Shown: positions 6,001 to 63,524 of the stretch, piece after piece
Layout of the letters: the number at the start of each line of letters is the position of its first letter
How positions within the stretch are numbered: the first letter of the stretch is position 1
From: a virus
Taxonomy: Duplodnaviria; Heunggongvirae; Uroviricota; Caudoviricetes
DNA: 64,000 nt
Virus record (IMG/VR): IMGVR_UViG_3300021400_000048
Location: 56,791 to 120,790 of that record
Reading direction: 5' to 3' (one strand)
Notes under the pieces: generated by a model
The model's input: the letters and a program-made list of their open reading frames with translations, nothing else
Told to the model about the DNA's origin: nothing
The model's database searches: none
Made by a program: the position numbers and the translations under genes

Positions 6001-9000
6001 ATGGTCCAATAGTAGCAAATGTACTGCCCTCATATTTTAAATTAACATATACTGGTACTTCTGATGGTACAAGTGTTAATGTTGCACCAGCTGTAGTTGT
6101 TGATTTTACATCACTCATATTAATAGAATAATTTGCAGCAGCTGTTGTAGGTTTTGCTTTTGTAGTTTGTCCTATTGCAGTATAAATTACTGTACTAGCT
6201 GCAGAAACATCGCTAGACCAGCTTGAACCACCATTTACAGAATATTGATAAGTAGCAACACCTGTATTAGCTTTAACTATTACTTTATAATAATTAGCAC
6301 TTGGTGTCTGAGTAGTACCAGCTATAGAGCTACTAGAAGTAACATTAGCTGTTGTTGTACCAATTGAGCTAAATGCATAATTCTCATCAGCTGTATATAC
6401 TATATCTGTATCTTTTAATACAAAAGCACCACTTGTAAATCCACTAGGGCTATCTAATGTACAACGTGTAGTGGTAATTAATATTTTATAATATATATAA
6501 TTAGCTGTTTTCTCTAAGATTTGTCCAGCTGTTGTTACTGTATCATACACTGTCAAAGTTGGACTTAGTACATTAGTGTTAGTAAAGCTATATTTATAAT
6601 TTGTATCTGTATTTGCATTTCAAGTTATTACGGTATTTTTTAGAATATATCCAGAGTCGTAGTCTGCACTACAATTTTCAGCGCCTATAGTTACATTATA
6701 ATAAATATATTGAGCATTTTTTATATAATCTGTCTTAGCAGAAACTATTTCTTGCACAGTAACTGTAGGAGCTATTGCGCTACTATTTGTAAAGCTGTAT
6801 TTAGTATTTACATCAGTATCTGCGTTTCAAGTAATTGTAGTTCCACTTAATATATAATCACCACTAGATATTGTTGGAGTAGTTATTGAACAATTAGTAT
6901 TTGTAAATGTTATATAATAATAAATATAATCAGCATTATGTATATAAGCTAATTTATCTAAACTTAATACTTCAGTTTCTATTACAGTTGGAGATTTTAA
7001 ATTAGCATCGCTAAAACTATATTTGTAATCATTAGCTGAGCTTGCTGCTTCTCAGTAAACTGTTGTACCTACTGGATATACTATAGAATCTACCATAGTT
7101 TCTTTATTTTGGCCTACATATCTATAAATATTTGAACAGTTATTACCAGAGTAGCTTGCTTGCATATATTCAGGACTTGGAGCAGTATAAGTACCATTTC
7201 CATCTCATAAGTCTGTTTTTATAATAGAATCATCTTCTGTAGTTACACCATTATAAGAATAATGGCTTTTAGCTGTTCATGTAATTTGTGTAATGCTACT
7301 ATATCATGTATTAATAGTTATACTTGGTGTAGCATATGGGCTATTAATAACAAGAGCTTTAAAATATTGATTATAAGTAGCATCAATATTTCTATTACCT
7401 GTAACTTTTGCTAAACTATCTCAAGCATTAAACTCTAATTTACCAGTGCCTGCTGAATTTGTAACAGTAGTTGGAGTTGGAACTGTTCCAGAAATTGGAG
7501 TTGATGTTCCAGGTATATCATCATAATAATATACTACATTTACAGTTGTTCAATTAACAGCATCATATGTCATATCTGAATCATATGCATTTGCATATCT
7601 AAATGTAATTGTATAAGAATTTAAAGTTCTGTCATTTGTTGCTGTAATAGTTACATTAGTTGTAAGCTCATCTATGTCACCATTTGTAATAATAGGAGTA
7701 GTATATGAGTATTTAGCAGTATCAACAGCTTTATTTACTGTATTTGTTCATCTTGCTGTATCTAAATCATCTCATCTATAGCAAGTAATTGTTGTTCCAT
7801 TTACTTCTAATTTATCACCATAATAAGCTATTTTATCAGCAGAAGATGCTCAAGAACCATATGGAGGATTGCTAAATGATACAGTAAGTGCAATTCTAGT
7901 AGGGGCAGCAGAAACGCTTCCTGGAACAGGGTCTGAATCAGATGTTATAGGGCTATTTCCAAAAATATATCCAGTATTTGCTTTAAAATAAGTTATTTTT
8001 GAAGCCGCTATTTCAAATCAACCACTATTAACTTGAACTGTACATTCAGCATTGCTATAAGCTACGCAATTTGTAACATTAATTGCGTAATAACCATAAG
8101 TACATTCTGCACGATATACATAAGTATTGCTGTTTATTATAGCAGTTTCAGTAGACTTTCCATTAGCATCAAAAGCATAACTAGTTTCTCTTGTTCACGT
8201 AATTACTGTGCCTAATTCATAAATTGTATCAGTAGTCTTATCTGCTGTGCAGTGGTTACTACTTAAATCAATTTTACAAAAACTAGGACTTTTAGCTAAT
8301 TCACCACCTTGAATAATTGTACTTTGTGCAGTATCACTTACACTACTTCCTCCAAATGATCATCTTGGATTAGCAGTTCAAGTAATAATAGTATTTTCAT
8401 CATACCAGCCTGCTGTTGATGTTGTTGAACAGTTAGTTCCAGCAAAAGTAACATAATATTGTTGTTTATATGTACAAGTAATAGTTCTAGACGCAACTAC
8501 TTGACCTAAATCATCTCATGCTAAAGCTACTTGTTTATTATTTCCAGATACGACATCGCTAGGTAAAGTTCTGCTTGGATACTCACCATAGCTATATTGT
8601 TCATTTTCAACTGTCCAATGTCCATAGCTATCTTGTCATTTCCAAGTAATTGTATATTTATTTGTTACAACTTTCGCTGAAACAGCTATACTAGGGTCAG
8701 CAGCAGTTGCTACATCATCAACACAATAAGTTCTAGCACTAACTTCTGTTCAGTTATCTTGAGGCAAATAAGAATATTGTGCAGTATTATCTTTTAATGT
8801 AGCAAAACCATAAACACTTGAATTAATATCAAAGTATGTATTATTAGGGCTTCCTGATGTTGCAGCACTGTCTGTAGATAAATAAATAGAATTTGTTTTA
8901 CATTCTAAAGCTGACATAGAAACTTTAAATCAAGAAGGTTTAGCAACTATATTGCAATTTTCACTTCAAATATAAAGTTTTTCAGTAGTTGTTCCTGCTT

Positions 9001-12000
9001 CATCTCAAGCATAGCCACGTTCAGCATATACGGTAAAACTAGTTGGTAATCAATAGCCAGTTTCAGCATGCTCATTATGATTATATGCAGTAGTTTGATA
9101 AGTTGTGTATAAATAAGTAATTCGACCAAAGCAATAGTTAGGGCTTGCACTTAGTGTTGTAGGTACTTGTGCATTTGAAGCAGTTATAGTTAAACTTGTG
9201 CCACCTGTTGGCTTTTCAGCAGATGCACTTGCAGCAGCACCACTTGCAAAAGATCAATAAGTACTTGAATTAACTACTGTACTTAAGTTAGTTCCCTTAG
9301 CAACATATTGACCATTAGCGTGGCCTGAAGCATATTCACAGTGTGTTAAATCTAATGTTACTTGTACAAAATCTGGATTTGAAGTTAATGCACAATTTAA
9401 TGACCAAGTTTTTGTTTCAGTTGTTTCTGAAGCGCTATATGCATAGCCATTATTAGCTGTACAAGTTATTTGACCACCATTTGTAAAATAATAATTTGTT
9501 CCACTTGGGATTGTTGTACTTAAAACACTATCTGTTGCATAGCAATTTATACAAGTTATTTGACCAATCACACAAGTAGGGCTACCATTTATAACTCTTG
9601 GCTGATTCATTATCACAGTTTCTGAATAATTGCTTGCAGTAGTACCAGTACTAAATGAATAGTTAGACTTAGGTGTAAAGGTAGCAGTTACTGATGTTGC
9701 ATCTATAATTTTGTATCAAGCAGATGACTTATTACATGTACAATTTGAATCTACATTTATTGTTAAATAGCAGTGTGTAGGTGTTTTTGAATATGTATTA
9801 CCTGGTGTTATTAAATTATCACTTTCTGTTGTTTTTCCATTAGCGTCAAAAGCATAACCAGGATCTCTTGTTCAAGTACATTGAGTATTATATTGATATC
9901 AACCAGTAGTTGAAGGAGTTGTACAGCCTACTCCTGCAGAAATTATTACGTAAATATAATCCGCTGTTGGTGCATAATTAAATATATTTCTTGTTACATC
10001 TAAATATGTAGTTGTTTGAGTTCCATTAGCATTAAAAGCACAATTATTAGCTGCTGTAAAATTAATACGTGTACCTATTTCATACCAACCATCTGTGCTA
10101 GTAGAAGAACAACGAGTTCCACCAATAGTAATATCCATAAAGTCAGCAGAAGCAACATAATTTGTAATTGATGCTACAATAGTATCTTCTAAAACATTTG
10201 TTCCCTCTGAGTCAAAACCATAATCATCTAAAGCTATTCAGCTAAATGTAGTTCCTAACAATCTATAACCATCTGCCATTATCATGATATCATCTATGTA
10301 TGCATTACAAGATGTGCCATTAAATGTTACATATTTATAATCTGCAGACGCTTCATATAAGTATGGCGCAGCTAAAGATACAGATTGATAAGTTGATGCA
10401 CTTTGTGTTGTTCCTTCTGCAAAACTATATCCTATATCTGCTGTTCAAGTAATTCTTGTACCGCCTCTCATAAGACCTACCCAGCCACTTGGGATATTGA
10501 CACTACCATCATTTGCTTGACATCTTGTTGATTCAACTTTAATTTGTACATAAGGAGGAATCTTATCAAATGTGCCGCCGGCTGTTAATGTAACAGTAGT
10601 ATCATCTCCTATGCTAATTCCATTAAATGAGTGCTTATTATCAGCAGTTCAAGTTATTGTAAGATTATTTGGTGCATAATAAGTATTAGAATCTTTATCT
10701 ATTGCACTACAATAACTTCCAGTTATACTTGCAGCTTTTATATTTGTAGGGCTATTATCATAAGTACCAGGTGCTAAAACAGTTGTTGTAGCTTCTGTTT
10801 GAGTAGCTCCAGCACTAAATGAATAATAAGTATCTGGTGCTCAACGAATTATAGTATTTAAAGCTACAACACCACTTCAATTTGTAGCTCTTTGAGTAGA
10901 ACCTACATAAATAGTATCATTAGTTCCTTTAACTGTAATTCCAGCATATGTTGGACTTGCTGAAACAGTACCTGGTACTGCTGCTGTTTGGTCTAAGTAA
11001 TCATTTACAGTTGTTCCATTAAATGACCAATTATTCACAGCAGTAAATCTTGTAGTTTTACTTACAGCTAATTCATACCAACCACTGTTTACATTTGCTG
11101 TATATTTATCAGAATCGGCAGAAACAGTATAATAACCATAAGTTGGCGCATAATCATACGCATTTTTACCGGCTTCAGTTAAATGCTTACTAGCTGTTTG
11201 TGTTCCATTACTATCATAAGCATATAAATTATCAGCAGTTCAGGTACATTCTATATCATAACTAACTCATCTTCAACCATCAACAATAGCTGCACCGCCA
11301 ATGCTTGCAGCACTATTTGTTGATGCAATTTTTACATAAATATAATCTGCAGAATTTGAATAAATACCTGCTTGATTTGGAGTAATGCTTTGAACAGCTG
11401 TTTTTTGTGTACCATGTATATTAAAAGCATAATTATCTCTATCTGTTTCAGTTCCAGCAGTTCAAGTATATGTAAATGCTGTTGAGCTGCTATCATACCA
11501 ACCAGATGGATAATTACTATCTAACGTACAACGTGTACCATTAAATGTTAATTTATATTGACGTTTATATTGTGCGATAATAGTTCTATTTCCAGTAACT
11601 GGTGATAAATTATCCCATTGTAAGAAATATTCTCTGGCATTATCTTCACTATTAGTTACAGTTTCACCGACTCTACTTGGAGTCTCACCATATATATAAA
11701 CTTCTTCAACCTCAGTATAAGTATTTGGATAAGCTGTTAAATATTTCCAAGTAATTGTATAGCCATTAACAGTTTGTGTACCTCATATTATTTGTTGATA
11801 AACTTCATGTGTAATATTAGTAATTTCCACATCTTCCATATTACTATATGTATAATATGTTGTTACATATGTGCTATCTGTATATAAGTCTGAAGCTCAT
11901 ACACTATCACCATAATTTACAATATATGGGCCAGTTTCTGCAAATCTTGTTCCTTCATAATAATGTTGTAAATAAACTGGTACAGTCGCAGGAACTATTG

Positions 12001-13696
12001 TTACACTTGCTGGTAATGATGTAGATAATACAATAGTAGCAGTGTCTACCGTATAATTAGTATCCGCTGTGCAAGCTTTTACTTTAGCTATGTTTCCAGT
12101 AGGACAATTAAAGCTTGTGGCACTTACGTTATCTATTCAAGTAATGCCATCATCAGTACTATATGAATAAGTTACAACACCTGTAGCTCTTGTTACATTA
12201 ACAATAAAATATGCTGCTTGTGGAACAGTTGCAGATTGACTTGAATATGTACAAATTGCGTAAGGCTGATTATCTAGTACATAACCTGTAGTAGCTGTTG
12301 AAGCTTTAACATAACAAGTAGCGACATAATCTATATAAATATTATCACCAGAAGTATATTCAGTTGTAGACCAAGTAGTTCCATTTGTTGAATACTTAAA
12401 TTTAGCAACACCTGTACCTAAGCTAATAGTAGGATTCCAATTAATACGTGTTGCACCAACACTTGCAATAGTAGTATTTTCGTAATAAGCATTTGTAATA
12501 AATGGTGTACCACTAACAGTGCCATTTCAAGTATATAAGCCAGTTTCATCATCATATGTACAGTCTGTTTCAGTGATTGTGCATGTTGCATAGTTTGTTC
12601 CGCCACTACGCTCTCTTAATACTAAAGTTACTGGAAATTTATAGCCAGTTGTCATTGCAAATCTAATAGGGTCTGTTAACCAATTACCATTTCCAAGTAC
12701 TTGGATATTATTACCACTTGTAGGATATAAATTAGTAATGCCAGTCATAGCTGCTGTATCATTATAAATATTCATTATTTTACCAACAGCATTTACATTA
12801 ATTTCATCATAATAAGTATTTCCTGACATTGTATAGCTATTATTTCCAAAAGTTAATGTAATAATAGGCTCAGTAATATTTGCATAATCTAACCAATTTG
12901 CAGATCTTAAACCGCTAATATTGATTGCTAAAGGAGCATCAAATGTACCAACATTATTTACAGTAATAACTGCACCATTTGCTGTATTTTTAATAATATT
13001 ATAACTTTTTGGTGTAGGATTAACAGCTGGAGCAATAATTGCAGACCCTTCACCGGCAATAACAGTACCTTTATAAGTTGATTCTGCACCTGTAAATTCA
13101 TAGCCTGTGTCTGGGATAGCTTCTCAAGTAATTGCTGTTCCCCACCAAGGATAAGGATTATCTAAGTTAACACTACCAGAATTCACTGTTCCAGTATGTT
13201 CAACTCCATAAATATCAGTATATTTATAAGAAATAACTGCATGACTAAGTGAATTTACAATACTATGATTGGTAGCATATCTTCTAGCCTCATAACTATT
13301 TACAGCTTGTTCATCCAAAATTATAGTATTAGGGCTAGCTTGTGAAGTAGCAATATTACCACTATCTACACCATTAACAAAAAATCTACCTTGTACTGCT
13401 GGTGTAGTGCCAATATAAAAATATAAAATATCGCCACCAAAAAATACTTGGCCATCTTCGCACATACTTGTATCTTTTAAGTGAACTTGAGTAGCCAAAT
13501 CTGCAGGAGCGCTGATTTCTATGTAATTACCAGTAGCTGGGAACATTTCACCAGCTGCTCTAACATAAATATCAGTAATTCCTAATGTAAATTTAATATA
13601 TGGGTCTAAGCCTGGCCAATGTGCATTATACTTTAAGTAATACTCTCTTTTTGCAGATATTTTATACTCATTCTTAATATATTCTTTTGTTGCCAT
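1..13696 (-). CDS. giant repetitive virion-surface / tail-fibre-like protein (table 4); 5' end complete, 3' end beyond window, more than 4,560 codons in window
   Basis: ATG at 13694-13696 behind a GAGAGGA RBS. All T/S/Y/N/G-rich minus-strand fragments (ends 12829, 10138, 9616, 6556, 5866, 3187, 2662, 2293, 1852, 1447) share the frame of 13696. Fragments that were checked end in TGA (e.g. + strand tca at 13124-13126 and 9899-9901). Fragments in other frames (217..585, 5842..6033, 8947..9150) are Q/L low-complexity junk. Confidence 0.7.
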
Positions 13697-13721
13697 AATT
13701 TAATTCCTCTCTAAGAATACT

Positions 13722-27450: not shown

Positions 27451-27466
27451 TGTATTTCTACAGCTT
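27443..27466 (-). terminator. hairpin AAAGCTGTA-TTTC-TACAGCTTT after nrdD
   Basis: Overlaps the nrdD stop; its T-run is the class B -10 upstream tract. Confidence 0.6.
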
Positions 27467-28413
27467 TAAATATGCTTTACTCTATCTTCTACTTCTTTTT
27501 GCTTTCCATAATTAAAAGCAGTTTTATAGTTGCCAGTCAAATATCCTGTTACTCTTCTTAATTGTTGTATATTATGACTTCCACATGCTGGACATTTATC
27601 ATTAAATTCACCAGTATAGCCACAGTCTAAACAAGTATCATTTGGAATATTAATTGCAAAATATGGAATATCTTTATCCATTGCATAATTAACTAATTGT
27701 TCTAAGGCTTCTAAATTACCTGTTGCAGCTGAGCTTAACTCAACATAAGTAATACAGCCAGCATTTGAATATCCTGTTAATTGTGATTCAATGTCTATTT
27801 TTTCAAAAGCAGTGACTTTTTCCCAAACAGGAACATGAATACTATTTGTAAAATATTCACGATCTGAAACATTTGGAATTACACCATATTTTTCTTTAAA
27901 CTTTTTCATTGCTGTATAACATAAGTTTTCAGCAGGAGTATAATAAACACCAAAGTTTAAATGATATTGCTTTTTAAATTCAGCGCATCTATCTTTAAAT
28001 AATTGTTCAATTCTCTTAGCTAATTCCATACCTTCAGGTGTACATTGATTTTTGCCAATTAACAATTCAAGAGTTTCAGCTAAAGCAATTTGTCCAATAA
28101 CTAAAGTTCCATGTTTTAAAGCACTTCTAATACCTTGCTCAGGATGATAACCAATCATTGTATTATTTTCATACATAAATTTTGCTGAGCTTGGGCTTTG
28201 AGCACACATATATTCATAACGTTCAATTAACATATCTTTTGCTTCATGAATTTTGGCATCTAAAATAGCCATAAACGCATCAACATCTCTGTCTGCCTCC
28301 ATTGCTAAGGTAGGTAAAATAATTGTGACTGGGGCTAAATTTCCACGTCCATCTTTTGTTTGCGGGTTAACTCCTGGCTCTGCATTAATATCTGCGCCAT
28401 TTGCAGTTCTACA
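27466..28413 (-). CDS. nrdD: anaerobic ribonucleotide reductase, exon 2 (glycyl-radical RVTGYL, C-terminal Zn ribbon CLDCGY...CPACGSH)
   Basis: Exon 2 starts at the CRTANGADINAEPG...DGRGNLAPVTIILPTLAMEA region, which matches the remembered E. coli NrdD MGCRSFLG...DGRNNLGVISLNLPRIALEA. Confidence 0.75.
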   Translation of the reverse strand, partial: CRTANGADINAEPGVNPQTKDGRGNLAPVTIILPTLAMEADRDVDAFMAILDAKIHEAKDMLIERYEYMCAQSPSSAKFMYENNTMIGYHPEQGIRSALKHGTLVIGQIALAETLELLIGKNQCTPEGMELAKRIEQLFKDRCAEFKKQYHLNFGVYYTPAENLCYTAMKKFKEKYGVIPNVSDREYFTNSIHVPVWEKVTAFEKIDIESQLTGYSNAGCITYVELSSAATGNLEALEQLVNYAMDKDIPYFAINIPNDTCLDCGYTGEFNDKCPACGSHNIQQLRRVTGYLTGNYKTAFNYGKQKEVEDRVKHI

Positions 28414-28543
28414 CATGTTCTCAAATATTACTATTTGCACTGACTATATGTTCCATACTTCTGTATGGCCCTCCGCTTGGAACTGGTGCTTATCTCCAGC
28501 TCTACTCCGCTACACTCATCACGGATAGTCGATACACATTTAG

Positions 28544-29149
28544 TTAGATAAAATCATTTTCTTCATAAGCAAATTTATATTTATTCATAAAAGGTGTTTT
28601 TAACATATTCATGCAACGTCTTGTAACAAATTGATGATTTCCATAATTGAAATATCTTCTTGCGTCTTCAGCTGTTTCAAAATGAATAATTTCACCAGTT
28701 TCAATATTTAAACACTTAACTGCGTGAGCATTTGGATTTTTTCCACTCATTTTAGTTTGTCTAATTTTCTCTTTAATATCAAGCATTTCATCTTCAGTTT
28801 TACCTGCATATGTGTTACCACCACAACTAACTAAAGGATCTTGCACATTATAACCTTCTTCAATAGTATTTAATTTGAATACTCAATAATGTTCTCTTTC
28901 AGTTAATTGTTTTCTTGTACAATTTTCTAAATGCTCAAGTTCTTCAATTTGAAAATTATCAACACCATATTTTCTAATAGCTCTTGCAAACTTTGTATCT
29001 ATTTGATATTTATTACCAATAGAATCTTTTTGATGTTTTAATCATCTTCATTCAAGTGTTTTTGTTGTTTGACCAATATAAATTTTTTGATTAATTAAAT
29101 TAGTTATTTTATAAATATAACCAATTTCAAATGTTTTTGCTTTTGTCAT
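28544..29149 (-). CDS. GIY-YIG homing endonuclease (I-TevI-like; GYIYKITN...KIYIGQT; NUMOD3-like KMSGKNPNAH), 201 aa, 3 TGA-Trp
   Basis: Hand translation MTKAKTFEIGYIYKITNLINQKIYIGQTTKTLEWRWLKHQKD...EREHYWVFKLN. The TGA codons sit where I-TevI has Trp (FEKRWKRHFKD, ERENFWIKELN). Own class A motif at 29166-29184. Confidence 0.75.
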
Positions 29150-29165
29150 ATGCAATACCGTCCTA

Positions 29166-29184
29166 CAATTAATTTAGCAAATAA
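29166..29184 (-). promoter_or_regulatory. class A motif inside the nrdD intron, before the homing-endonuclease ORF
   Basis: TTATTTGCTAAATTAATTG, identical core to 20115-20132; about 20 nt before the ATG at 29149. Confidence 0.5.
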
Positions 29185-29318
29185 TTTTAGGGGTGTTGTA
29201 CATTTTTTATCTAACATTTAGCACGGTCTCATCCATTACAGGACCTAACCGTTAGCCGCTTTCGCGACACCCTTTAAGCAAGGTTCGAAGGGTTTTAGAT
29301 GGGCTATAGTTTACGCTT

Positions 29319-30554
29319 ACCCATCGTAGAAAAATATGTTTTAGGATCATTCCTATCATAACCAGCATTATTAGACCAGTCTACATTTGCATAATTTGGA
29401 TATAATCGTTTTGATGTAGATTTTAATGCTAATTGATACATATCATAATTTGGTGTTCCAGGTTTATCATTAACACCTTTCATATATTGGAATATACCAC
29501 AAGGGAAAATTGGTGTTCTATGAAGTTTTCCAACACCTTTTAAACTACCTTCAAGCAATGATTTAATAACCATTCTTCCTTCAGTTGATGTGCAAGTTCC
29601 GTAGTTGATGCTTGTAAATGGCAATTGGTTGCCCGAACGTGATTGTAGTGTGTTTAGATTGTGATACATTCCTTCAACTGCTTGATCTAATTCACGTTTA
29701 GTCATTTTTAAAGCATACTTATAGGCACCTTCATACTTTTGATATTCTTTAGCATCAATTGGTCTATTTATTGCTTCATAGCAGAAAAAAGTATCTTTTG
29801 GTTCATCTATATTTTCAACAAATTCAAGTCCATCTTTAAAATGTTTTGCAAATGATTTTCTAACATAAGGAACCATTGTCCAGTCTAAATGTGTTGCAGA
29901 AACACCACCAAATTGTTGTAAGCTTTGTAATTGGAATATTACAGCAACTAATTGAAATGCTGTATTTACTGAGCTTGCTGGCCTTATATCTGTCTGTCTT
30001 GTATTGAAGCCTTTTGCAAGTAAATCATCAAATGGAATTGATAAACAATTGTGCATTCCAACAGCATAACTATCTAAATCATGAATATAAATTTCATTAT
30101 TTAAATGATTATTTCTTGATTTTTCAGACATACAATAATTTAAAGCAAGTTCTTTCATTAATACTGAATCAGCTTCACCTTTTCTACCACCAAATGAGTG
30201 TTCGTCAACATTCGCGTTCTGATTAACAATATGCATACCAGAAAGCTTATCACCAATTTCCTTCATCATTTTAGACTTGCCTTGTCTAATTCTCGTTCTT
30301 TGGTCTCTATACAAGATATATTGTTTTGCAGTAGCTTTAAACTTACTAACTAATAAAGCATGCTCAACTAAATCTTGAATTTGTTCAACATTTAAATCTG
30401 TAATGTTTTCACATTTACTTACTACTGAAGCTACAATTTTATCAATTTCTTCTTCAGTCATTTCTAAACTTCTACTATTAGCTTTACTAATTGCAGATCT
30501 AATTTTGGAACTATCAAAATCACGTTTAGTTCCGTCACGTTTTGTAATTAACAT
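29319..30554 (-). CDS. nrdD: anaerobic ribonucleotide reductase, exon 1 (ATP-cone N-terminus)
   Basis: ORF 29304..30554 minus its last 5 codons, which are intron; AAAGGTGAT RBS. Confidence 0.75.
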
Positions 30555-31448: not shown

Positions 31449-32546
31449 CTATGGAATAACTACAGTTGATACATCATCTGAACTCATATATGTTTCTGGT
31501 AAAATACCATTCCATTGTTGAGTATAGTAATACTTAATTAGATTTTCTGCACCAACTTTTAATTCAGCATCAGATACTAATGTTCCATCTGGTTTAACTA
31601 ACGTATTAATACCTTCATTATTTGTAACAACTGTCCAACCATTAATTGAAGCTAGTCTTTGCATTGCAATACTTGCTTCTTTCTTACCTTGATATTCAGC
31701 ACTATCAGCACCAATTTGTGCAACATCTTTGTCTGCTTGTGCTTTAATTCTTGCAACTTCTGCTTCAGCTTCAGCTCGCTTTGTAGCAGCTTCTGCTTCA
31801 GCTTCTGCTTGCAAAATAGCAACTTGTTTTTGATTTTCTGCTTCAGCTAATTTTTGTTCTTGTTCAATTAGAGCTTGTTGCTTCTTTTGTTCTTGAGCAA
31901 CTTTAGCTGCTACTGCAGCTTCAAAATCATCGGTAAAATCAATATTAGTTAATACAATAGTTTTAACATTAACATAATAGCCAGTATTGATACTTGCATC
32001 TACTGTTTGACTGATATTTGCACTAATTTGACTTCTATTGTTAATTACATCAGTCGCTGTATTTTGTGCAAATACTGATTTAATATTATCTAATGCAATA
32101 GATGTAATTTTTGATTCAAGTTTTTCGATTGAACCATATTCAGTAGCAATCTTATCAACTTGTGCAGCATCAATAGTGTATTGTAAATCAGCAGTTACAC
32201 CAATAATCTGATTATCCTTAGAGTAAGTCTGAGTTTCAATATTAATTTCCCTAACCTTAGTATCATACTTTTCATATTTATTAGTAAAATATGAATCCCA
32301 ATGAACACCAGCTTCTCTTGTACCAGTGACCTTTCCTAAATGTCTAACAACTGCAACTTCACCAGTATCTACTTGATGAATGTTACCAGGAATTGCAATT
32401 GTCAAAATTAAGAATAAAATTGCTAAAATACTTCCAGCGATTTTTCCGCCATTACTTTCATCTTCAGCGAATGATACGCCAGCCCAAATACCTGTACCAA
32501 TTGTAGCTAAAATAAATACTACAAATAAAATAATTTTAATAGCCAT
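31449..32546 (-). CDS. SPFH / band-7 (prohibitin-HflKC-like) membrane protein with an Ala/Glu coiled coil
   Basis: N-terminal TM, SPFH-like core, AEAEAEAATKRAEAEAE coiled coil; real TAG stop. Confidence 0.65.
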   Translation of the reverse strand: MAIKIILFVVFILATIGTGIWAGVSFAEDESNGGKIAGSILAILFLILTIAIPGNIHQVDTGEVAVVRHLGKVTGTREAGVHWDSYFTNKYEKYDTKVREINIETQTYSKDNQIIGVTADLQYTIDAAQVDKIATEYGSIEKLESKITSIALDNIKSVFAQNTATDVINNRSQISANISQTVDASINTGYYVNVKTIVLTNIDFTDDFEAAVAAKVAQEQKKQQALIEQEQKLAEAENQKQVAILQAEAEAEAATKRAEAEAEVARIKAQADKDVAQIGADSAEYQGKKEASIAMQRLASINGWTVVTNNEGINTLVKPDGTLVSDAELKVGAENLIKYYYTQQWNGILPETYMSSDDVSTVVIP

Positions 32547-34891
32547 TATTTAATTTCCTTTCGTGCTAAAAATTTTTCTCTCATTGAAATAATATCTGTT
32601 TTATAAGGATATTCTTTTGTTTCAGGATCTCTATCATTTTTATAGCATTCTCTACAAAAACCGTAGAATAAATTCTTTTCAGGAGTTAGTAATGAACCAA
32701 CTCTACTATAACCACCACAGCGTAATGTAGAATCTGCAACACCTCTTAAATGTTTCCAATTATTATAGTATTCAGATTTACATTTTGTCATAAAGCCATC
32801 TTCATCTACAAACACAAAGCCTTCAATATAATTTCCATTATATTTATATTCTTCATCTTGTAATGCATTATATAACTCATTAAATTCATCAAAATCTTTT
32901 AATGTATAAGCTAATTCTTTAACTGGACAACCAATTTCAGTTGCAAGTTGTTTTAAAGCATTATAAGGCATAGTTTCAAACTTTAAGTCATTTCTAATTG
33001 CATCAAGTAAAACTACTTTTGGTTTGTCATATTTAATAATATGTGGGTCATTTTCTGGATCAATACATTCAAATACTAATGACCAAGATAAATTATGCTT
33101 GCCAAATAGCTTTGCAGTTTCATAACAACCTTTAAGTGTTGCTAATAGCTTTTCTTTATAAGGCTCAATAATAGTCTTAATATAACCAGCATAATCTCCA
33201 GTATTAGTTGATTTAGAAGCAATAAATAAATCATCATTCTTATAATCGTAAGAAACAATAGCTAAGAAACCATTTTCTTTAACATAAGCTTGAACTGGGA
33301 ATTTTAATTTAGATCTTAAGTTTACAATATTAGTTGCTTTTGTTTCATTAATTCTGAAAAACTTTTCATATGAACGAGCCATAATTTTATTATTTTCAGT
33401 ATCAATAAATAAACCACGAGCTAAAACTGTTTGTCTATTCCAGTTAGCAGAATAAAAAGCTTCTCTTGTAAAGTTAAATGATGAAATTCCATTTGCTAAT
33501 TGCTTTTCACTTACAAATTGATTTTCTCTTAAATATTTAACTGCATCTTCAACAGTTTCAACTTTAACAAGACCTAATTCTTTTTCTTCTTGTGTAATTG
33601 GTTGAACACTTTCTAATTCAACAGAATTCCATTTATACATAGTATTTAGACCAACACAAATTCTAGAACCTTTTGGAAATGGCCCATCATCTGTTGTATA
33701 GCCATATTCTGGCATATAACCAAGATGTTCTAATTCAACAATTCTTAACTTACCACCAAACTCAACACCACCTTCAAGATTAAATACTCTATCAGCATAT
33801 TGAATAGGATCTTCATTTGTATTTCTGTGACCATGAATTAAATATTGATTATCTTTTGTAGTTGTCATCCAAGTATCTGCAACTGTTGAATAATCTTTAT
33901 ATTGACCTACGCCATTAATAAATGCATATGTTGGAATTGTCATTAATGTCTCTGGAAGTGATGGAATACCGCCATGACAAGCCATAATTTCCATATTACC
34001 CCATTTAATATATGACATTTGACGAAGTTTTGAACAAAATACTCTTGCTTGTTTTGGAGTAATATTCCCAGCAATTAATTCAGGTTTTGTTTTTTCTTCA
34101 AATTCCATTGATTTAGATTTTAATTCATTTCCATAGTCTTTTAAATGTTTTTCATGATTGCCTTCTAATAAACAAACATTTGGTTTATCTTTAATAGACA
34201 TTAAAAAATTGAATACTTCTACATTTTGATGGCCTCTGTCTAAATAATCACCGATAAAAATATATTCAGTATCATCTTTTAAACCATCTTTGAAATCAGG
34301 ATATTGCATTAAAGTATCATAACAGCCATGAATATCACCAATAAAAACTAATTTTCTATATGATGATAAATCAACTGGCTCAGCTTTAATAATATCTTTA
34401 AATTCTTCCGGTTTAATTATAGTAAGACCAGACGGAACAGGTTGAGACTCAAATCTTGCATAAATATTTTTAACTGCTGCTTCTGGAACAATTTTATATT
34501 GGTCTCTCATTTTATTTTGTGCTAAACAAGTTTCAAGTGGAACTGTTGTAAAGTCAACAACATAAATATGATAACGATAAATAGCAGCAATATCTTTATA
34601 TTGTTTTAAATCTTTTGTTTTTGAAGCTGTTGCATCAATAACTGTCATTTCACCACGCTTCATTCTATATTCTAAAATATTGAATAAAGTTGCCCAAACA
34701 GCATTTTCAGTAGCAGGTTCTTGCTCAATACAAAAACTACCATCTGGTTGCCATTTCTTTGAGCTGTGTAAAACTCTTAATTCATCAGGACAAATAGTAT
34801 AAGCTTCTAAATGATTTTCTCTAATCCAAGTAGATTTACCTGCACCAGGAGCACCACGAGTAATAAATAAGGCTCTAATAATAATCACCAC
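32546..34891 (-). CDS. Pnkp-like RNA/DNA end-healing and sealing enzyme: P-loop 5' kinase (GAPGAGKST) + calcineurin-type phosphoesterase (GDIHG, GDYLDRG, GNHE) + C-terminal ligase-like adenylyltransferase (KENG)
   Basis: Motifs in the 781-aa ORF in the order kinase-phosphatase-ligase, as in bacterial Pnkp; alternative GTG start; 8 TGG, 0 TGA. Confidence 0.7.
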   Translation of the reverse strand: MVIIIRALFITRGAPGAGKSTWIRENHLEAYTICPDELRVLHSSKKWQPDGSFCIEQEPATENAVWATLFNILEYRMKRGEMTVIDATASKTKDLKQYKDIAAIYRYHIYVVDFTTVPLETCLAQNKMRDQYKIVPEAAVKNIYARFESQPVPSGLTIIKPEEFKDIIKAEPVDLSSYRKLVFIGDIHGCYDTLMQYPDFKDGLKDDTEYIFIGDYLDRGHQNVEVFNFLMSIKDKPNVCLLEGNHEKHLKDYGNELKSKSMEFEEKTKPELIAGNITPKQARVFCSKLRQMSYIKWGNMEIMACHGGIPSLPETLMTIPTYAFINGVGQYKDYSTVADTWMTTTKDNQYLIHGHRNTNEDPIQYADRVFNLEGGVEFGGKLRIVELEHLGYMPEYGYTTDDGPFPKGSRICVGLNTMYKWNSVELESVQPITQEEKELGLVKVETVEDAVKYLRENQFVSEKQLANGISSFNFTREAFYSANWNRQTVLARGLFIDTENNKIMARSYEKFFRINETKATNIVNLRSKLKFPVQAYVKENGFLAIVSYDYKNDDLFIASKSTNTGDYAGYIKTIIEPYKEKLLATLKGCYETAKLFGKHNLSWSLVFECIDPENDPHIIKYDKPKVVLLDAIRNDLKFETMPYNALKQLATEIGCPVKELAYTLKDFDEFNELYNALQDEEYKYNGNYIEGFVFVDEDGFMTKCKSEYYNNWKHLRGVADSTLRCGGYSRVGSLLTPEKNLFYGFCRECYKNDRDPETKEYPYKTDIISMREKFLARKEIK

Positions 34892-61847: not shown

Positions 61848-62207
61848 TTATCCTCTTCCCTTTCCTCTGCTTCTTGTAGGTGCACTTACTGGAAAATTAC
61901 TATAAACATCTCTATAGTAATAGCTACTACTTATAGCAGATGTAAAAGCATTAATTGCAGCAAGTGGTGTCGTAATTCTTGCTAAGCGACCGCTAGATTT
62001 AGATCTTGAACGCTCGTAGCTTAGCTTACGCCATAGCATTAATCTATCATATTTCTCTTTAGAAATTTCAGCCAGCTTTACAATTTCAATGTTTTTATCA
62101 TACATTTTTTGTAGTTGAAATATTACACCTTTTGGCTTAGCAGCTGTAATTAATTCTGCACGCTCAGTATTTAAATATTTAAATTTAACATAATAACATT
62201 TATACAT
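61848..62207 (-). CDS. 119-aa protein with a basic C-terminal tail
   Basis: ORF track; GTGAGGG RBS; class B variant 62235-62256. Confidence 0.45.
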   Translation of the reverse strand: MYKCYYVKFKYLNTERAELITAAKPKGVIFQLQKMYDKNIEIVKLAEISKEKYDRLMLWRKLSYERSRSKSSGRLARITTPLAAINAFTSAISSSYYYRDVYSNFPVSAPTRSRGKGRG

Positions 62208-62234
62208 ATATCTGTATCCCTCACTATTCTATCT

Positions 62235-62256
62235 ATATATATTATACCGCAAAATA
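62235..62256 (-). promoter_or_regulatory. class B variant (TTTTGCGGTATAATATATATAG)
   Basis: Before the ATG at 62207; also marks the 3' boundary of the ncRNA candidate. Confidence 0.5.
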
Positions 62257-62334
62257 AAATATTTGTAAATAGTTTTTATATATGAAAACGCTTTCGTTAA
62301 ATACATAAAATAAAAAATCAAAACCATTATACTA

Positions 62335-63105
62335 GTGTAAAGGTTTAACGGCCGAGCTTACCTTTCTTGTTAGAGCTCACCTCATACGAGGGCTCTTGCA
62401 TACTAACCTCGTCCAACGCTTATTCAACAGATCGTGTTGTAAAGATCTTATTCGTCGTCTGGCTAACCACTAATAGGTTTTGATTTGATTTAAATCTTTC
62501 GTTTACAGCTATAGGTACGAAAGCAACCTACCTCAAGTAGCCATGTTTGCACTCTTTCGGCAATGGCTGGGTACCGCTTATATTTTCCACGCAGCTTGCA
62601 CTCACTATGACCACTAGGCCTATGATCAGTAGGCTCTTGTGCAGCACACCTCGTAATAAGTAAATTTGGAAACATATAACTGTATAACAGAGATTCAAAC
62701 TCTGTATTCACCATAGTCGGTTTACTAATATTTTTCAGGCCACACTTCAATAGTATCACGTTCATACTACACAGTCAAAGAAGTCTCGTTTTTAATTATG
62801 ACTGCTTTAGATCTCCTTACTACTATTATTAGTAAACTCACTATGATGATGTAAGGTCAGCTCGTGCCCACGGTCTTCGCAGGTGAGGGGCCGATGGTTT
62901 ACGTCTCCGACACTCTACCTTACATTTAAATCATTTTCGTTCAGGTTGGATTCCTTACCTGTTCTTGTAGTTCACTCTAGCGTATTGGCTCTACCAACAT
63001 CCACGGGCTTTGGACTTTAGAATATATCAGGCCTTGAGTCCTTACTCTGTTTAATCGGCCTGCCTGCCTGACACCTAATATATTCATCACTACTCGCCGT
63101 AGTCG
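62335..63105 (-). ncRNA. candidate large structured ncRNA (about 770 nt; GC-rich, ORF-free, immediately 3' of a tRNA-like gene)
   Basis: Visibly GC-richer than all flanking sequence. The only track ORF here (62490..62765) is composition noise. Many local helices, e.g. CTTTCGT/ACGAAAG at 62497-62525 and GGCTCTTG repeats. Lies in the transcription unit of class B promoter 63408-63427. Confidence 0.45.
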
Positions 63106-63108
63106 ACC

Positions 63109-63183
63109 TACTACTAACAGGAATCGAACCTGTGCATAGATGCTTACACAGCACCATGCTCTTAGCCACTGAGCTATAGTAAT
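63109..63183 (-). tRNA. tRNA-like gene with an aberrant anticodon arm (UGU/Thr or GUG/His reading; no encoded CCA)
   Basis: Minus-strand sequence ATTACTA-TA-GCTC-AGTGGCTAA-GAGC-AT-GGTGC-TGTGTAA-GCATC-TATGC-ACAGG-TTCGATT-CCTGT-TAGTAGT-A. Acceptor (1 G.U), D arm and T arm (GGTTCGATTCC) are canonical. The anticodon loop has G at position 33 in the only 5-bp-stem fold. Confidence 0.6.
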
Positions 63184-63407
63184 AAGTTCACTACGACGAA
63201 GTAATTGTAGGCCGTATAATTCGAATTGACTCCGATATATAGCTCTTTTCCGGATAGTGTGATATATACCTTCAAGCCCTTCCTTTATAATATCTTCTAA
63301 GACATATTATCCGTCAATAACTGTTTCTTATATTTTTTTATAATGGTGCTTCTACATATTACTCTCATAGATGTCATAGGAAGTCAACTAAGACTTCTCA
63401 TGTTTCA

Positions 63408-63427
63408 TATTATATTATACAATAAAA
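63408..63427 (-). promoter_or_regulatory. class B promoter driving the tRNA-like gene and the large ncRNA candidate
   Basis: AATTTTTATTGTATAATATAATATG; no protein start for more than 1 kb downstream. A 220-nt leader with hairpin GAAGTC-TTAGTT-GACTTC (63372-63390) precedes the tRNA. Confidence 0.55.
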
Positions 63428-63524
63428 ATTCTAAATTTTAAAATTATTTTGCACTTTTAATTAAAACAAATATTATTACGCTGATAAATAATATAATATA
63501 AACTAAATCAGTAATAAGCATAAA

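What the first reader, a model, noticed from the sequence alone, without database searches (positions are those of the whole stretch)
62335..63105. About 770-nt GC-rich ORF-free element directly downstream of a tRNA-like gene: candidate large ornate ncRNA
This is the only GC-rich tract in the whole window. The coding strand carries no credible ORF. It sits in a unit that begins with a class B promoter (63408-63427) and a tRNA-like gene. It ends just before another class B site (62235-62256).

Many short complementary segments are visible. Examples are CTTTCGT...ACGAAAG near 62497-62525, a GAAA-type loop context, and GGCTCTTG repeats at about 62391 and 62633. Large structured RNAs of the GOLLD and ROOL type are characteristically found in phages and prophages next to tRNAs. 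This could be one of those or a new class. tmRNA, RNase P RNA or intron RNA are alternatives I could not confirm by eye.
Basis: partly seen in the sequence, partly recalled or inferred. Interest (0 to 1): 0.85.

Follow-up and report, generated by a model that had tools for sequence, protein, structure and literature searches.

The report
Modular noncoding RNA cassette beside phage tRNA
The GC-rich, gene-free stretch next to a tRNA in this rumen-type phage is real and noncoding, but it is a string of separate folded RNA modules rather than one giant RNA, and its last ~150 bases belong to a previously uncatalogued, strongly conserved small RNA family found in the tRNA clusters of uncultivated gut and rumen phages.

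Summary
Window 62315-63205 (RNA sense = minus strand) is the longest GC-rich tract in the window. It has no credible ORF under any stop-codon reassignment, sits between two promoter-like sites, and follows a tRNA-Thr-like gene.

The interpretation as one large GOLLD/ROOL-type RNA is not supported. Rfam 15 gives no hit even at E<=10. Comparison with 13 metagenome contigs shows that the tract is modular:
- **tRNA module:** the tRNA sits in a conserved 16-bp leader/trailer helix.
- **Module A (63085-62842):** shared only with one syntenic relative.
- **Module B (62841-62487):** absent from that relative and found nowhere else.
- **Module C (62486-62315):** a member of a new structured-RNA family.

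Module C has covarying helices P1-P3 (0/500 shuffles reach the observed scores) and a near-invariant 27-nt core, AAAGGUAAGCUCGGCCGUUAAACCUUU. It occurs once per locus, always co-oriented with the neighbouring tRNAs. It can lie directly between tRNAs, and in one phage (L033) it lies 8 nt upstream of a classic terminator, with no tRNA in the 8.4 kb of that locus that were fetched.

I found the family in no Rfam model, GenBank phage, GTDB genome or searched paper. Its function is unknown. My best guess is a small stable RNA released from the tRNA-operon precursor.

The parts
63414..63442 (-). Promoter-like site (TTTAAA-17-TATAAT) at the start of the noncoding unit
Evidence: Consensus scan, 10/12 match. 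Function is inferred, not shown.
63190..63205 (-). Leader strand of the helix that encloses the tRNA (AUUACUUCGUCGUAGU)
   Evidence: Pairs with 63103-63086 as 10 + 6 bp in the local MFE. The inner 10 bp are conserved in the window, L022, L023 and L024 although the enclosed tRNA body differs. L022 carries one compensatory change (G-C to A-U) and one C-G to U-G change.
63108..63184 (-). tRNA-Thr(UGU)-like gene with an atypical anticodon loop (G at position 33)
   Evidence: ARAGORN, Rfam tRNA 46.1 bits, own tRNA model 54.3 bits. G33 is read directly from the sequence. The homologous position in L022 has a 12-nt duplication and a UGA anticodon, and L023/L024 carry an unassignable tRNA-like gene.
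63086..63103 (-). Trailer strand of the tRNA-enclosing helix (ACUACGGCGAGUAGUGAU)
63020..63085 (-). Module A1: hairpin closed by a 12-bp stem
   Evidence: Inverted repeat I5 and MFE. It has diverged from L022, including indels, but the closing stem is kept with one compensatory pair and one U-G to U-A change.
62842..63019 (-). Module A2: GC-rich segment shared only with the syntenic relative L022
   Evidence: 118/120 identical over 63010-62891, against about 70-95% per 60 nt in the flanking coding DNA. No other homologue was found. With only two sequences, this could equally reflect recent recombination.
62487..62841 (-). Module B: orphan insert of about 355 nt, absent from L022 and L019
   Evidence: It is a gap in the alignment to L022. 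It includes sub-module B1, whose 23-nt arms (87% complementary) lie at 62849-62827 and 62730-62708 (I1), and a T-arm-like hairpin at 62703-62689 (E=4.6, not significant). No homologue in INPHARED, the protein database, the fetched loci or GTDB genomes. Fold z-score -1.95.
62315..62486 (-). Module C: member of a new conserved structured-RNA family, including the window-specific outer extension of its closing stem P1
   Evidence: The covariance model hits 62476-62329 at 80.4 bits, though the window copy was a training sequence. P1 is 62477-62468 paired with 62337-62330, plus the 11-bp outer helix I4 at 62486-62476 / 62325-62315. Covariation is shown.
62413..62467 (-). Module C 5' domain: junction GUUAG, helix P2 (62462-62456 / 62418-62413), conserved junctions GACGAAUAAG and UUGAAUAAGC, helix P3 (62447-62444 / 62433-62430) with loop UUUACAACAC
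   Evidence: 60/60 identical to L022 over 62470-62411. P2 has 2 of 6 pairs, and P3 has 3 of 4 pairs, with changes on both sides. L033 has entirely different P2 and P3 sequences that still pair.
62366..62410 (-). Module C variable insert (hairpin P4)
   Evidence: Length and sequence differ in every lineage (0-85 nt), and the insert is absent in L017, L033 and the L020 type.
62339..62365 (-). Near-invariant 27-nt core AAAGGUAAGCUCGGCCGUUAAACCUUU. Possible hairpin P5 (AAAGG(U)/(A)CCUUU) whose loop contains the palindrome CGGCCG
   Evidence: 27/27 in 13 contigs, but the central 20 nt were the search pattern. In L033, which was found independently through the 5' domain, it is 26/27, and the single A-to-G change is compatible with a U-G pair. 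No diverged copy with up to 7 mismatches in the 254 kb held. P5 itself never varies, so it is untested.
62241..62269 (-). Promoter-like site (TTTACA-17-TATAAT) of the next gene (61848-62207), which marks the end of the noncoding unit
   Evidence: 11/12 match. It is conserved in L019, L022, L023 and L024.

Best explanation
The tract is a noncoding RNA operon in a phage that reads TGA as Trp. It is a degenerate 'tRNA island'.

**Proposed mechanism**
- One promoter (about 63442-63414) drives a precursor that carries several independently folding units. Each unit is closed by its own long helix.
- The units are a tRNA-Thr-like gene clamped in a 16-bp leader/trailer helix, modules A1 and A2, module B, and the terminal module C.
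- Inferred: the modules are separated by the host's tRNA-processing enzymes (RNase P, RNase Z) and by a duplex-specific nuclease of the RNase III type acting on the 12-23-bp closing helices. Module C would then accumulate as a small stable RNA of about 150 nt.

**Module C**
- It is the only part with broad conservation.
- It is a multi-helix junction with about 50 near-invariant nucleotides. These lie in two internal-loop strands, the P3 loop, and a 27-nt 3' segment.
- That 27-nt segment probably forms a hairpin that displays a palindromic CGGCCG loop.
- This amount of sequence conservation points to a specific partner. The partner could be a protein, or a second copy bound through loop-loop pairing. 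It does not look like a simple antisense regulator.

**Modules A and B**
- They are lineage-specific additions, and B is an orphan.
- They may be functional RNAs of narrow distribution, or they may be decaying remnants.

**Shown:** noncoding status, modularity, RNA-level covariation and strand of module C, its phage and tRNA-island context, and its absence from known families.

**Inferred:** co-transcription, processing, and any function.
For: **Noncoding status**
- No credible ORF appears under any stop-codon reassignment.
- The GC island is real.

**Modularity**
- L022 is syntenic: it has the same 93-aa and 119-aa flanking genes. It carries leader, tRNA, A and C but not B.
- L023 and L024 keep the leader/trailer helix and C, with different sequence in between.
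- In L025/L029 and L018/L031, C follows a tRNA within tens of bases.
- In L033, C lies 8 nt upstream of a classic terminator, and no tRNA was found in the 8.4 kb fetched.

**RNA structure of module C**
- 95.8% of cells are paired, and 11 of 24 pairs changed on both sides. None of 500 shuffles reached any of the observed measures. With the partner columns slid, only 27-43% of cells pair.
- All 9 P1 pairs covary across 9 lineages.
- The helices are kept with unrelated sequences in L033 and in the short forms.
- G-U pairs occur only on this strand, and the motif is co-oriented with the tRNAs in all 11 loci that have tRNAs.

**Copy number, distribution and closing helices**
- There is one copy per locus, and the model finds non-training members at 39-71 bits.
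- It is absent from Rfam, INPHARED, 185,579 GTDB genomes and the paper library.
- Long closing helices are present.
Against: - There is no expression or processing data. Transcript ends and cleavage are pure inference.
- Modules A2 and B rest on one relative or none. Their folding z-scores are not significant.
- The invariance of the 27-mer is inflated, because the central 20 nt were the search key. Only L033 is an independent sample.
- P5 and the proposed loop-loop pairing have no covariation support.
- Seven lineages do carry an ORF-free, often GC-rich region of 245-770 nt directly upstream of module C. That pattern is also what a large RNA with a variable 5' half would look like.
- I made the alignments used for pair counting after cutting out the variable insert by hand, and I derived the structure from these same sequences.
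Confidence: 0.62

Rival explanations
1. The whole unit is one large RNA built like GOLLD. It would have a universally conserved 3' domain (module C), a long, poorly conserved and insertion-tolerant 5' region (A and B), and a tRNA embedded in it. It might assemble into homo-oligomers through the palindromic loop.
For: - GOLLD is described as having a conserved 3' region, a variable 5' region, and tRNAs sometimes in its linker, next to phage tRNA islands (PMC12286853).
- In the window, L022, L023/L014, L024 and the L020/L021/L026 group, an ORF-free region of 245-770 nt directly precedes module C.
- The tRNA sits inside a conserved helix.
- The whole-tract fold z-score is -2.3.
Against: - Module C occurs without any upstream domain: directly after a tRNA in L025 and L018, and in L033 as a compact locus with no tRNA in the 8.4 kb fetched.
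- L022 lacks B with no other change.
- The upstream regions share no detectable similarity with one another.
- P1 closes module C on itself in every lineage.
- The Rfam GOLLD and ROOL models do not hit.
Confidence: 0.15
2. Only module C, and perhaps the tRNA, is functional. Modules A and B are non-functional debris of a decaying tRNA island: former tRNAs or other RNA genes eroded by recombination. They keep a high GC content simply because they are recent.
For: - B is absent from the closest relative and is an orphan.
- The tRNA at this position is abnormal in three lineages.
- L024 has a borderline tRNA-like hit (29.1 bits) in its corresponding spacer.
- A2 contains a D-loop-like GUUGGUAGAGCC, and B contains a T-arm-like hairpin.
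- These regions are mosaic, and L018 fuses the same leader to a different tRNA.
Against: - A dedicated tRNA model with filters off finds no tRNA remnant in A or B; the best hit is 6.4 bits.
- A2 is 98% identical to L022, while the flanking genes are about 85% identical.
- A1 keeps its closing stem through a compensatory change.
- B has long, near-perfect closing helices.
Confidence: 0.17
3. The conserved 27-bp core acts at the DNA level. It would be a target for a homing endonuclease or recombinase, or a recombination hot spot that shuffles tRNA-island cassettes. The flanking inverted repeats would be DNA hairpins.
For: - The core is extremely conserved while the neighbouring regions are mosaic.
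- The core is partly palindromic.
- Assembly graphs break at it: the Logan contigs L006 and L004 overlap only at 62338-62367.
- Homing endonucleases exist in this phage, for example the GIY-YIG ORF inside nrdD.
Against: - The helices contain G-U pairs, which would be A-C mismatches on the other strand.
- The orientation always matches the tRNAs.
- Three nested helices with conserved asymmetric internal loops are not what a DNA site looks like.
- There is one copy per genome, and no endonuclease or recombinase gene is shared among the loci.
Confidence: 0.05
4. The tract encodes a protein under an unusual genetic code or with frameshifts.
For: The phage does reassign TGA.
Against: - With TGA, TAG or TAA read as sense, the longest frames that do not run across the tRNA gene or into the flanking 119-aa gene reach only 94-111 codons.
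- The 91-aa ORF has an atypical composition and no Pfam or PHROG hit.
- No predicted protein in 5.8 billion clusters resembles any of the six frames.
- Substitutions follow base-pairing, not codon positions.
Confidence: 0.01

Closest known systems
GOLLD RNA (Rfam RF01998)
   Same: It is a phage or prophage RNA next to tRNA islands. It has a conserved 3' part and a variable 5' part, a tRNA can be embedded in it, and its function is unknown (PMC12286853).
   Different: There is no match to the covariance model even at E<=10. The conserved part here is about 80-160 nt, not about 400 nt, and it occurs alone. No tested pair links the 5' modules to it.
ROOL RNA (Rfam RF03087)
   Same: It originates from the rumen and gut, occurs in phages and prophages near tRNAs, and has unknown function (PMC5737381).
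   Different: There is no model match. [quoted passage not shown] Nothing comparable is conserved here.
Small stable RNAs of phage tRNA regions: T4 RNAC/RNAD, and the two phage K lncRNAs next to tRNA genes
   Same: These are noncoding RNAs of unknown function expressed from or beside phage tRNA clusters. T4 RNAC/RNAD are described as RNAs of unknown function (PMC9697503). The phage K lncRNAs lie near tRNAs and are abundantly transcribed (PMC9241854). That RNAC/RNAD lie in the T4 tRNA cluster and are matured with the tRNAs is from my own knowledge.
   Different: A search of the whole GenBank phage collection, first with the 1251-nt region and then with the 103-nt motif, found no similarity. Homology with these particular RNAs was not tested directly.
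Small self-cleaving ribozymes common in phages (pistol, twister, hatchet, hammerhead)
   Same: They are compact multi-helix RNAs with many invariant nucleotides and occur in phage genomes. One motif-bearing contig (the one that holds both L001 and L031) also carries a pistol ribozyme (54.8 bits) and a twister-P5 ribozyme (38.2 bits). The string CGUUAAAC occurs in both that pistol and the core.
   Different: No Rfam ribozyme model hits module C in seven loci at E<=10. The pistol and twister copies lie about 85 kb away on that contig. No cleavage site can be inferred.
tRNA-linked release of other RNAs (MALAT1/mascRNA, gammaherpesvirus tRNA-miRNA units)
   Same: The idea of using flanking tRNA structures and their processing enzymes to define the ends of a neighbouring noncoding RNA (from my own knowledge).
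   Different: Those systems are eukaryotic or eukaryotic-viral. The comparison is an analogy of mechanism only, and it is untested here.

Membership tests
GOLLD (RF01998) | Match to the family covariance model at or above the gathering score | tested here: not met
   No hit at the gathering score or at E<=10 on 62000-63500.
GOLLD (RF01998) | Location in a phage or prophage next to tRNA genes | tested here: met
   The window carries phage genes, and a tRNA lies immediately upstream.
ROOL (RF03087) | Match to the family covariance model | tested here: not met
   No hit. No hit in the 13 related loci either.
HEARO / IscB omega RNA | Model match and an adjacent IscB-type ORF | tested here: not met
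   No Rfam hit. The only ORF of 100 aa or more within 500 nt, under either code, is the unrelated 119-aa gene at 61848-62207; the others are shorter and unrelated.
tmRNA | tRNA-like domain plus a tag reading frame | tested here: not met
   ARAGORN finds no tmRNA in the window, and Rfam finds none.
RNase P RNA | Match to the bacterial type A or type B models | tested here: not met
   No hit at E<=10.
Group I / group II introns | Model match, and interruption of a host gene with joinable exons | tested here: not met
   No Rfam hit, and the flanking tRNA and genes are intact. The negative from the group I model is weak. The obvious intervening sequence in nrdD of this same window, which carries a GIY-YIG ORF, is also missed at E<=10.
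tRNA (the adjacent gene) | Cloverleaf matching the tRNA model | tested here: met
   46.1 bits against a gathering score of 29; 54.3 bits with my own model.
tRNA (the adjacent gene) | Canonical 7-nt anticodon loop with U33 | tested here: not met
   The loop reads U-G-UGU-A-A, so position 33 is G. Whether the tRNA decodes is not testable with these tools.
Decayed tRNA genes (modules A and B) | Residual match to a tRNA covariance model | tested here: not met
   Own model R2, built from 31 phage tRNAs, with filters off: the best non-tRNA hit is 6.4 bits, E=0.46, and it lies on the wrong strand.
New family defined here (module C) | Closing helix P1, junction RUUAG, and the 27-nt core AAAGGUAAGCUCGGCCGUUAARCCUUU directly before the 3' strand of P1 | tested here: met
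   The window copy at 62477-62330 has all three. Model R1 scores it at 80.4 bits, though it was a training sequence.
New family defined here (module C) | Helices supported by compensatory changes across members | tested here: met
   P1 has 9 of 9, P3 has 3 of 4, and P2 has 2 of 6 pairs with changes on both sides, and 0/500 shuffles reach the observed scores. P5 never varies, so it is inconclusive.
Self-cleaving ribozymes (pistol, twister, twister-sister, hatchet, hammerhead) | Match to the family model | tested here: not met
   No hit in the window region or in six other motif-bearing loci at E<=10. Catalytic activity itself is not testable with these tools.

The most novel reading that the evidence does not exclude
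Module C is the catalytic or assembly core of a new class of phage RNA. It could be a new self-cleaving or tRNA-directed ribozyme. It could also be an RNA that self-associates through its CGGCCG loop into an RNA-only particle, onto which lineage-specific 5' domains (A, B) and tRNAs are grafted. In that case it would be a third, independent solution alongside GOLLD and ROOL.
Probability: 0.12. Interest if true: 0.85.

Novelty: new variant of a known kind. Interest (0 to 1): 0.55.

Why it matters
Phage tRNA islands are known to harbour enigmatic RNAs. GOLLD and ROOL form nanocages, and T4 RNAC/RNAD are still of unknown function decades after their discovery.

This locus adds a compact, sharply conserved and easily synthesised RNA of about 80-160 nt from uncultivated rumen and gut phages. 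It has clear covariation, an unusually rigid 27-nt core, and a modular way of acquiring extra domains. RNAs with that profile often turn out to be ribozymes, protein decoys or assembly modules.

The locus also shows how a tract that looks like one giant ornate RNA can be a mosaic of independently evolving units. That is a caution for scans that look for GC-rich intergenic regions in AT-rich genomes.

Tried and rejected
- **Known RNA families:** Rfam at the gathering score and at E<=10 on the window, on related loci, and on six motif-bearing loci gave only tRNAs.
- **GenBank phages:** blastn against INPHARED with the whole unit, and with the 103-nt motif at E<=10, gave nothing.
- **Synteny through neighbouring genes:** homologues of the 119-aa and 93-aa flanking proteins (L001, L007-L013) have ordinary genes where the RNA would be.
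- **Pseudo-protein search:** a six-frame translation of the tract searched against 5.8 billion protein clusters, to catch spurious ORFs called on homologous RNA, gave no hit.
- **Other exact patterns in IMG/VR:** a module A 22-mer and the tRNA 3' end gave nothing.
- **Patterns meant to reveal variation in the core or the P5 stem:** these returned only the same three contigs plus chance hits in coding DNA, namely L028, L030 and L032.
- **Module B 20-mer in GTDB genomes:** three chance matches in unrelated GC-rich MAGs.
- **Alternative genetic codes:** rejected.
- **tRNA remnants in A and B:** rejected with a dedicated model.
- **Pairing between A2 (62955-62929) and the T arm of the tRNA (inverted repeat I2):** L022 shows no compensating changes, so I treat it as chance.
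- **Long-range pairs between 62983-62973 and 62341-62331 in the whole-tract MFE:** rejected, because they compete with the covariation-supported P1.
- **Shared proteins among motif-bearing loci:** none beyond the synteny with L022.
- **Link between the motif and TGA recoding:** not consistent across loci.

Full report
**1. The observation**

All genes in the window lie on the minus strand, so I read the tract on that strand.
- GC is 0.36-0.50 from 62314 to 63254, against a window mean of 0.295. This is the longest such island, but shorter ones exist.
- The longest ORF is 91 aa (62490-62765). It has no Pfam or PHROG match.
With TGA open, 1-13699 becomes one frame of at least 4,566 codons, and many other genes carry in-frame TGAs.
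- Within the repeats of that giant protein, the same positions use TGG in some copies and TGA in others. TGA therefore means Trp.
- Under TGA, TAG or TAA read-through, the frames in the target that do not run across the tRNA gene or into the flanking 119-aa gene reach only 94-111 codons. The tract is noncoding.
- A tRNA lies at 63184-63108.
- Sigma-70-like sites at 63442-63414 and 62269-62241 bracket the unit.
- Folding energy alone is only mildly unusual, with z = -2.3.

**2. Known families**

- Rfam 15 finds only the tRNA, both at the gathering score and at E<=10 on 62000-63500.
- There is no GOLLD, ROOL, HEARO, tmRNA, RNase P RNA, intron or ribozyme hit.
- One caveat applies. The evident group I-type intervening sequence that splits nrdD (28441-29303, carrying a GIY-YIG ORF) is also missed. 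The group I negative is therefore weak.
- INPHARED has nothing similar.

**3. Finding relatives**

- The same sequence occurs, 100% identical, in three public assemblies.
- Homologues of the two flanking genes sit in other phages without the RNA.
- A six-frame pseudo-protein search found nothing.
- The lead came from the Logan assembly, which breaks at 62338-62367. That suggested a k-mer shared with other genomes in the same sample.
- A 20-mer from this spot hit 13 metagenome contigs, where about one hit is expected by chance.

**4. The tract is modular**

- L022 has the same flanking 93-aa and 119-aa genes. It aligns to 63460-62842 and to 62475-61823 but lacks 62841-62476.
- L023 and L024 share the leader, the trailer and the last 240 nt, with unrelated sequence in between.
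- L014 and L025 share only the last ~150-220 nt.
- L015-L017, L020, L021 and L026 share only a 27-mer; L016 also shares a 46-nt piece of the 5' domain.
- I therefore distinguish four units:
  - a tRNA unit (63205-63086);
  - module A (63085-62842);
  - module B (62841-62487);
  - module C (62486-62315).
- Each unit is closed by its own long helix:
  - 16 bp around the tRNA;
  - 12 bp for A1;
  - 23-nt arms (87% complementary) for B1;
  - 8 + 11 bp for C.

**5. The tRNA unit**

- The inner 10 bp of the leader/trailer helix are conserved in four lineages, although the enclosed tRNA differs.
- L022 shows one G-C to A-U compensatory change.
- The tRNA itself is odd:
  - G33 in the window;
  - a 12-nt duplication that creates a long variable arm, plus a UGA anticodon, in L022;
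  - an unassignable anticodon in L023 and L024.
- L018/L031 fuse the same leader to a normal tRNA-Asp.

**6. Modules A and B**

- A is shared only with L022.
- Its 3' part is 118/120 identical, where the flanking genes are about 85% identical.
- Its first hairpin has diverged but keeps its closing stem, with one compensatory pair.
- With only two sequences, this is weak evidence of constraint.
- B has no homologue anywhere I could search.
- A dedicated tRNA model finds no tRNA remnant in A or B.

**7. Module C is a new structured-RNA family**

The architecture, in order, is:
- P1 5' strand;
- junction RUUAG;
- P2, enclosing the conserved junction strands GACGAA... and ...GA(A/C)UAAGC and the hairpin P3 with loop UUUACAA(C/G)AC;
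- an optional variable hairpin of 0-85 nt;
- the core AAAGGUAAGCUCGGCCGUUAAACCUUU;
- one nucleotide;
- P1 3' strand.

Short forms exist. L017 and the L020/L021/L026 group replace the P2/P3 domain with a simple hairpin.

Evidence for the structure:
- On eight long forms, 95.8% of cells pair and 11 of 24 pairs changed on both sides. No shuffle out of 500 reaches the observed values. Slid controls give 27-43% pairing.
- Across nine lineages, all nine P1 pairs covary.
- G-U pairs, and co-orientation with the tRNAs in all 11 loci that have tRNAs, fix the strand.

Because the 20-mer was my search key, its invariance is partly circular. I therefore searched IMG/VR with a degenerate pattern taken from the 5' domain only. 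That search found L033:
- L033 has new P1, P2 and P3 sequences that still pair.
- Its core differs at one position, A to G, which is compatible with a U-G pair in an extended P5.
- L033 has no tRNA in the 8.4 kb fetched, and a classic terminator follows the motif after 8 nt.

A covariance model finds exactly one copy per locus. It scores members outside its training set at 39-71 bits.

The family is absent from:
- Rfam;
- GenBank phages;
- 185,579 GTDB species genomes;
- the searched literature.

**8. Interpretation**

- The evidence favours a noncoding operon of independently folding modules over a single ornate RNA. C occurs alone, B is dispensable, and every lineage closes C on itself.
- Co-transcription and release by tRNA-processing enzymes and an RNase III-type enzyme are inferences from the anatomy. 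T4 RNAC/RNAD and the phage K lncRNAs are precedents for small RNAs in or beside phage tRNA regions.
- The many invariant nucleotides of C, and its palindromic CGGCCG in a probable hairpin loop, suggest a specific partner or self-association. Nothing tests this.
- The GOLLD-like reading (conserved 3' domain, variable 5' half, embedded tRNA) remains possible at about 15%. Seven lineages do carry a long ORF-free region directly upstream of C.

**9. Verdict**

- The feature is real and noncoding.
- The 'large ornate RNA' reading is not supported as stated.
- The 3' 150 nt are a new, well-supported RNA family of unknown function in tRNA islands of uncultivated gut and rumen phages.
- The remaining ~600 nt are lineage-specific.
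- Interest is moderate (0.55).

Noticed in passing
window 1-13699 (minus strand), and many genes between 13.7 and 61 kb: The phage reads TGA as Trp. With TGA open, 1-13699 is one frame of at least 4,566 codons that runs off the window. It encodes a repetitive Thr/Ser/Asn/Tyr-rich protein and uses 74 TGA against 28 TGG codons. The same repeat positions use either codon. Standard-code ORF calling shatters this gene.
   Followed up: partly
window 27466-30554 (minus strand): The anaerobic ribonucleotide reductase gene nrdD is split into two ORFs (29304-30554 and 27466-28440). About 860 nt lie between them, with GC-rich ends and a GIY-YIG-type ORF (28544-29173). This looks like a group I intron with a homing endonuclease, yet Rfam does not detect it even at E<=10.
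   Followed up: partly
L001:523-586 and L001:1243-1293 (IMGVR_UViG_3300021399_000119): A related phage contig carries a pistol ribozyme (54.8 bits) and a twister-P5 ribozyme (38.2 bits) about 700 nt apart. The same contig carries module C about 85 kb away, at L031.
   Followed up: no
window 63108-63184; L022:3053-3140; L023:2774-2862; L024:1566-1654: The tRNA held in the conserved leader/trailer helix is abnormal in every lineage. The window copy has G33. L022 has a 12-nt duplication that forms a perfect long variable arm, together with an anticodon change from UGU to UGA. L023 and L024 have an 89-nt tRNA-like gene with no assignable anticodon.
   Followed up: partly
L026:5310-5580, L021 and L020 (equivalent regions): In these contigs a GC-rich region of about 270 nt lies between a tRNA and the short form of module C, and it matches no family. 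L029 also has long unexplained gaps inside its 18-tRNA array, for example 5077-6225.
   Followed up: no
window 62338-62367: The two Logan contigs from SRR873599 overlap only over these 30 nt, which cover the invariant 27-mer. This is probably a de Bruijn graph branch caused by other phages in the same sample that carry the same core, for example AUXO014001580.1 = L018.
   Followed up: partly
window 62929-62955 versus 63119-63145: A segment of module A2 is 74% complementary over 27 nt to the T arm of the upstream tRNA (I2). Module A2 also contains a D-loop-like GUUGGUAGAGCC. L022 shows no compensating changes, so this is probably chance or a very old tRNA trace.
   Followed up: partly
window 32546-34891 (minus strand): A 781-aa fusion of polynucleotide kinase/phosphatase and RNA ligase, a tRNA-repair type enzyme. 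Its closest relatives are in Alicyclobacillus, SPbeta-like Bacillus and Staphylococcus phages, at about 37-41% identity.
   Followed up: no
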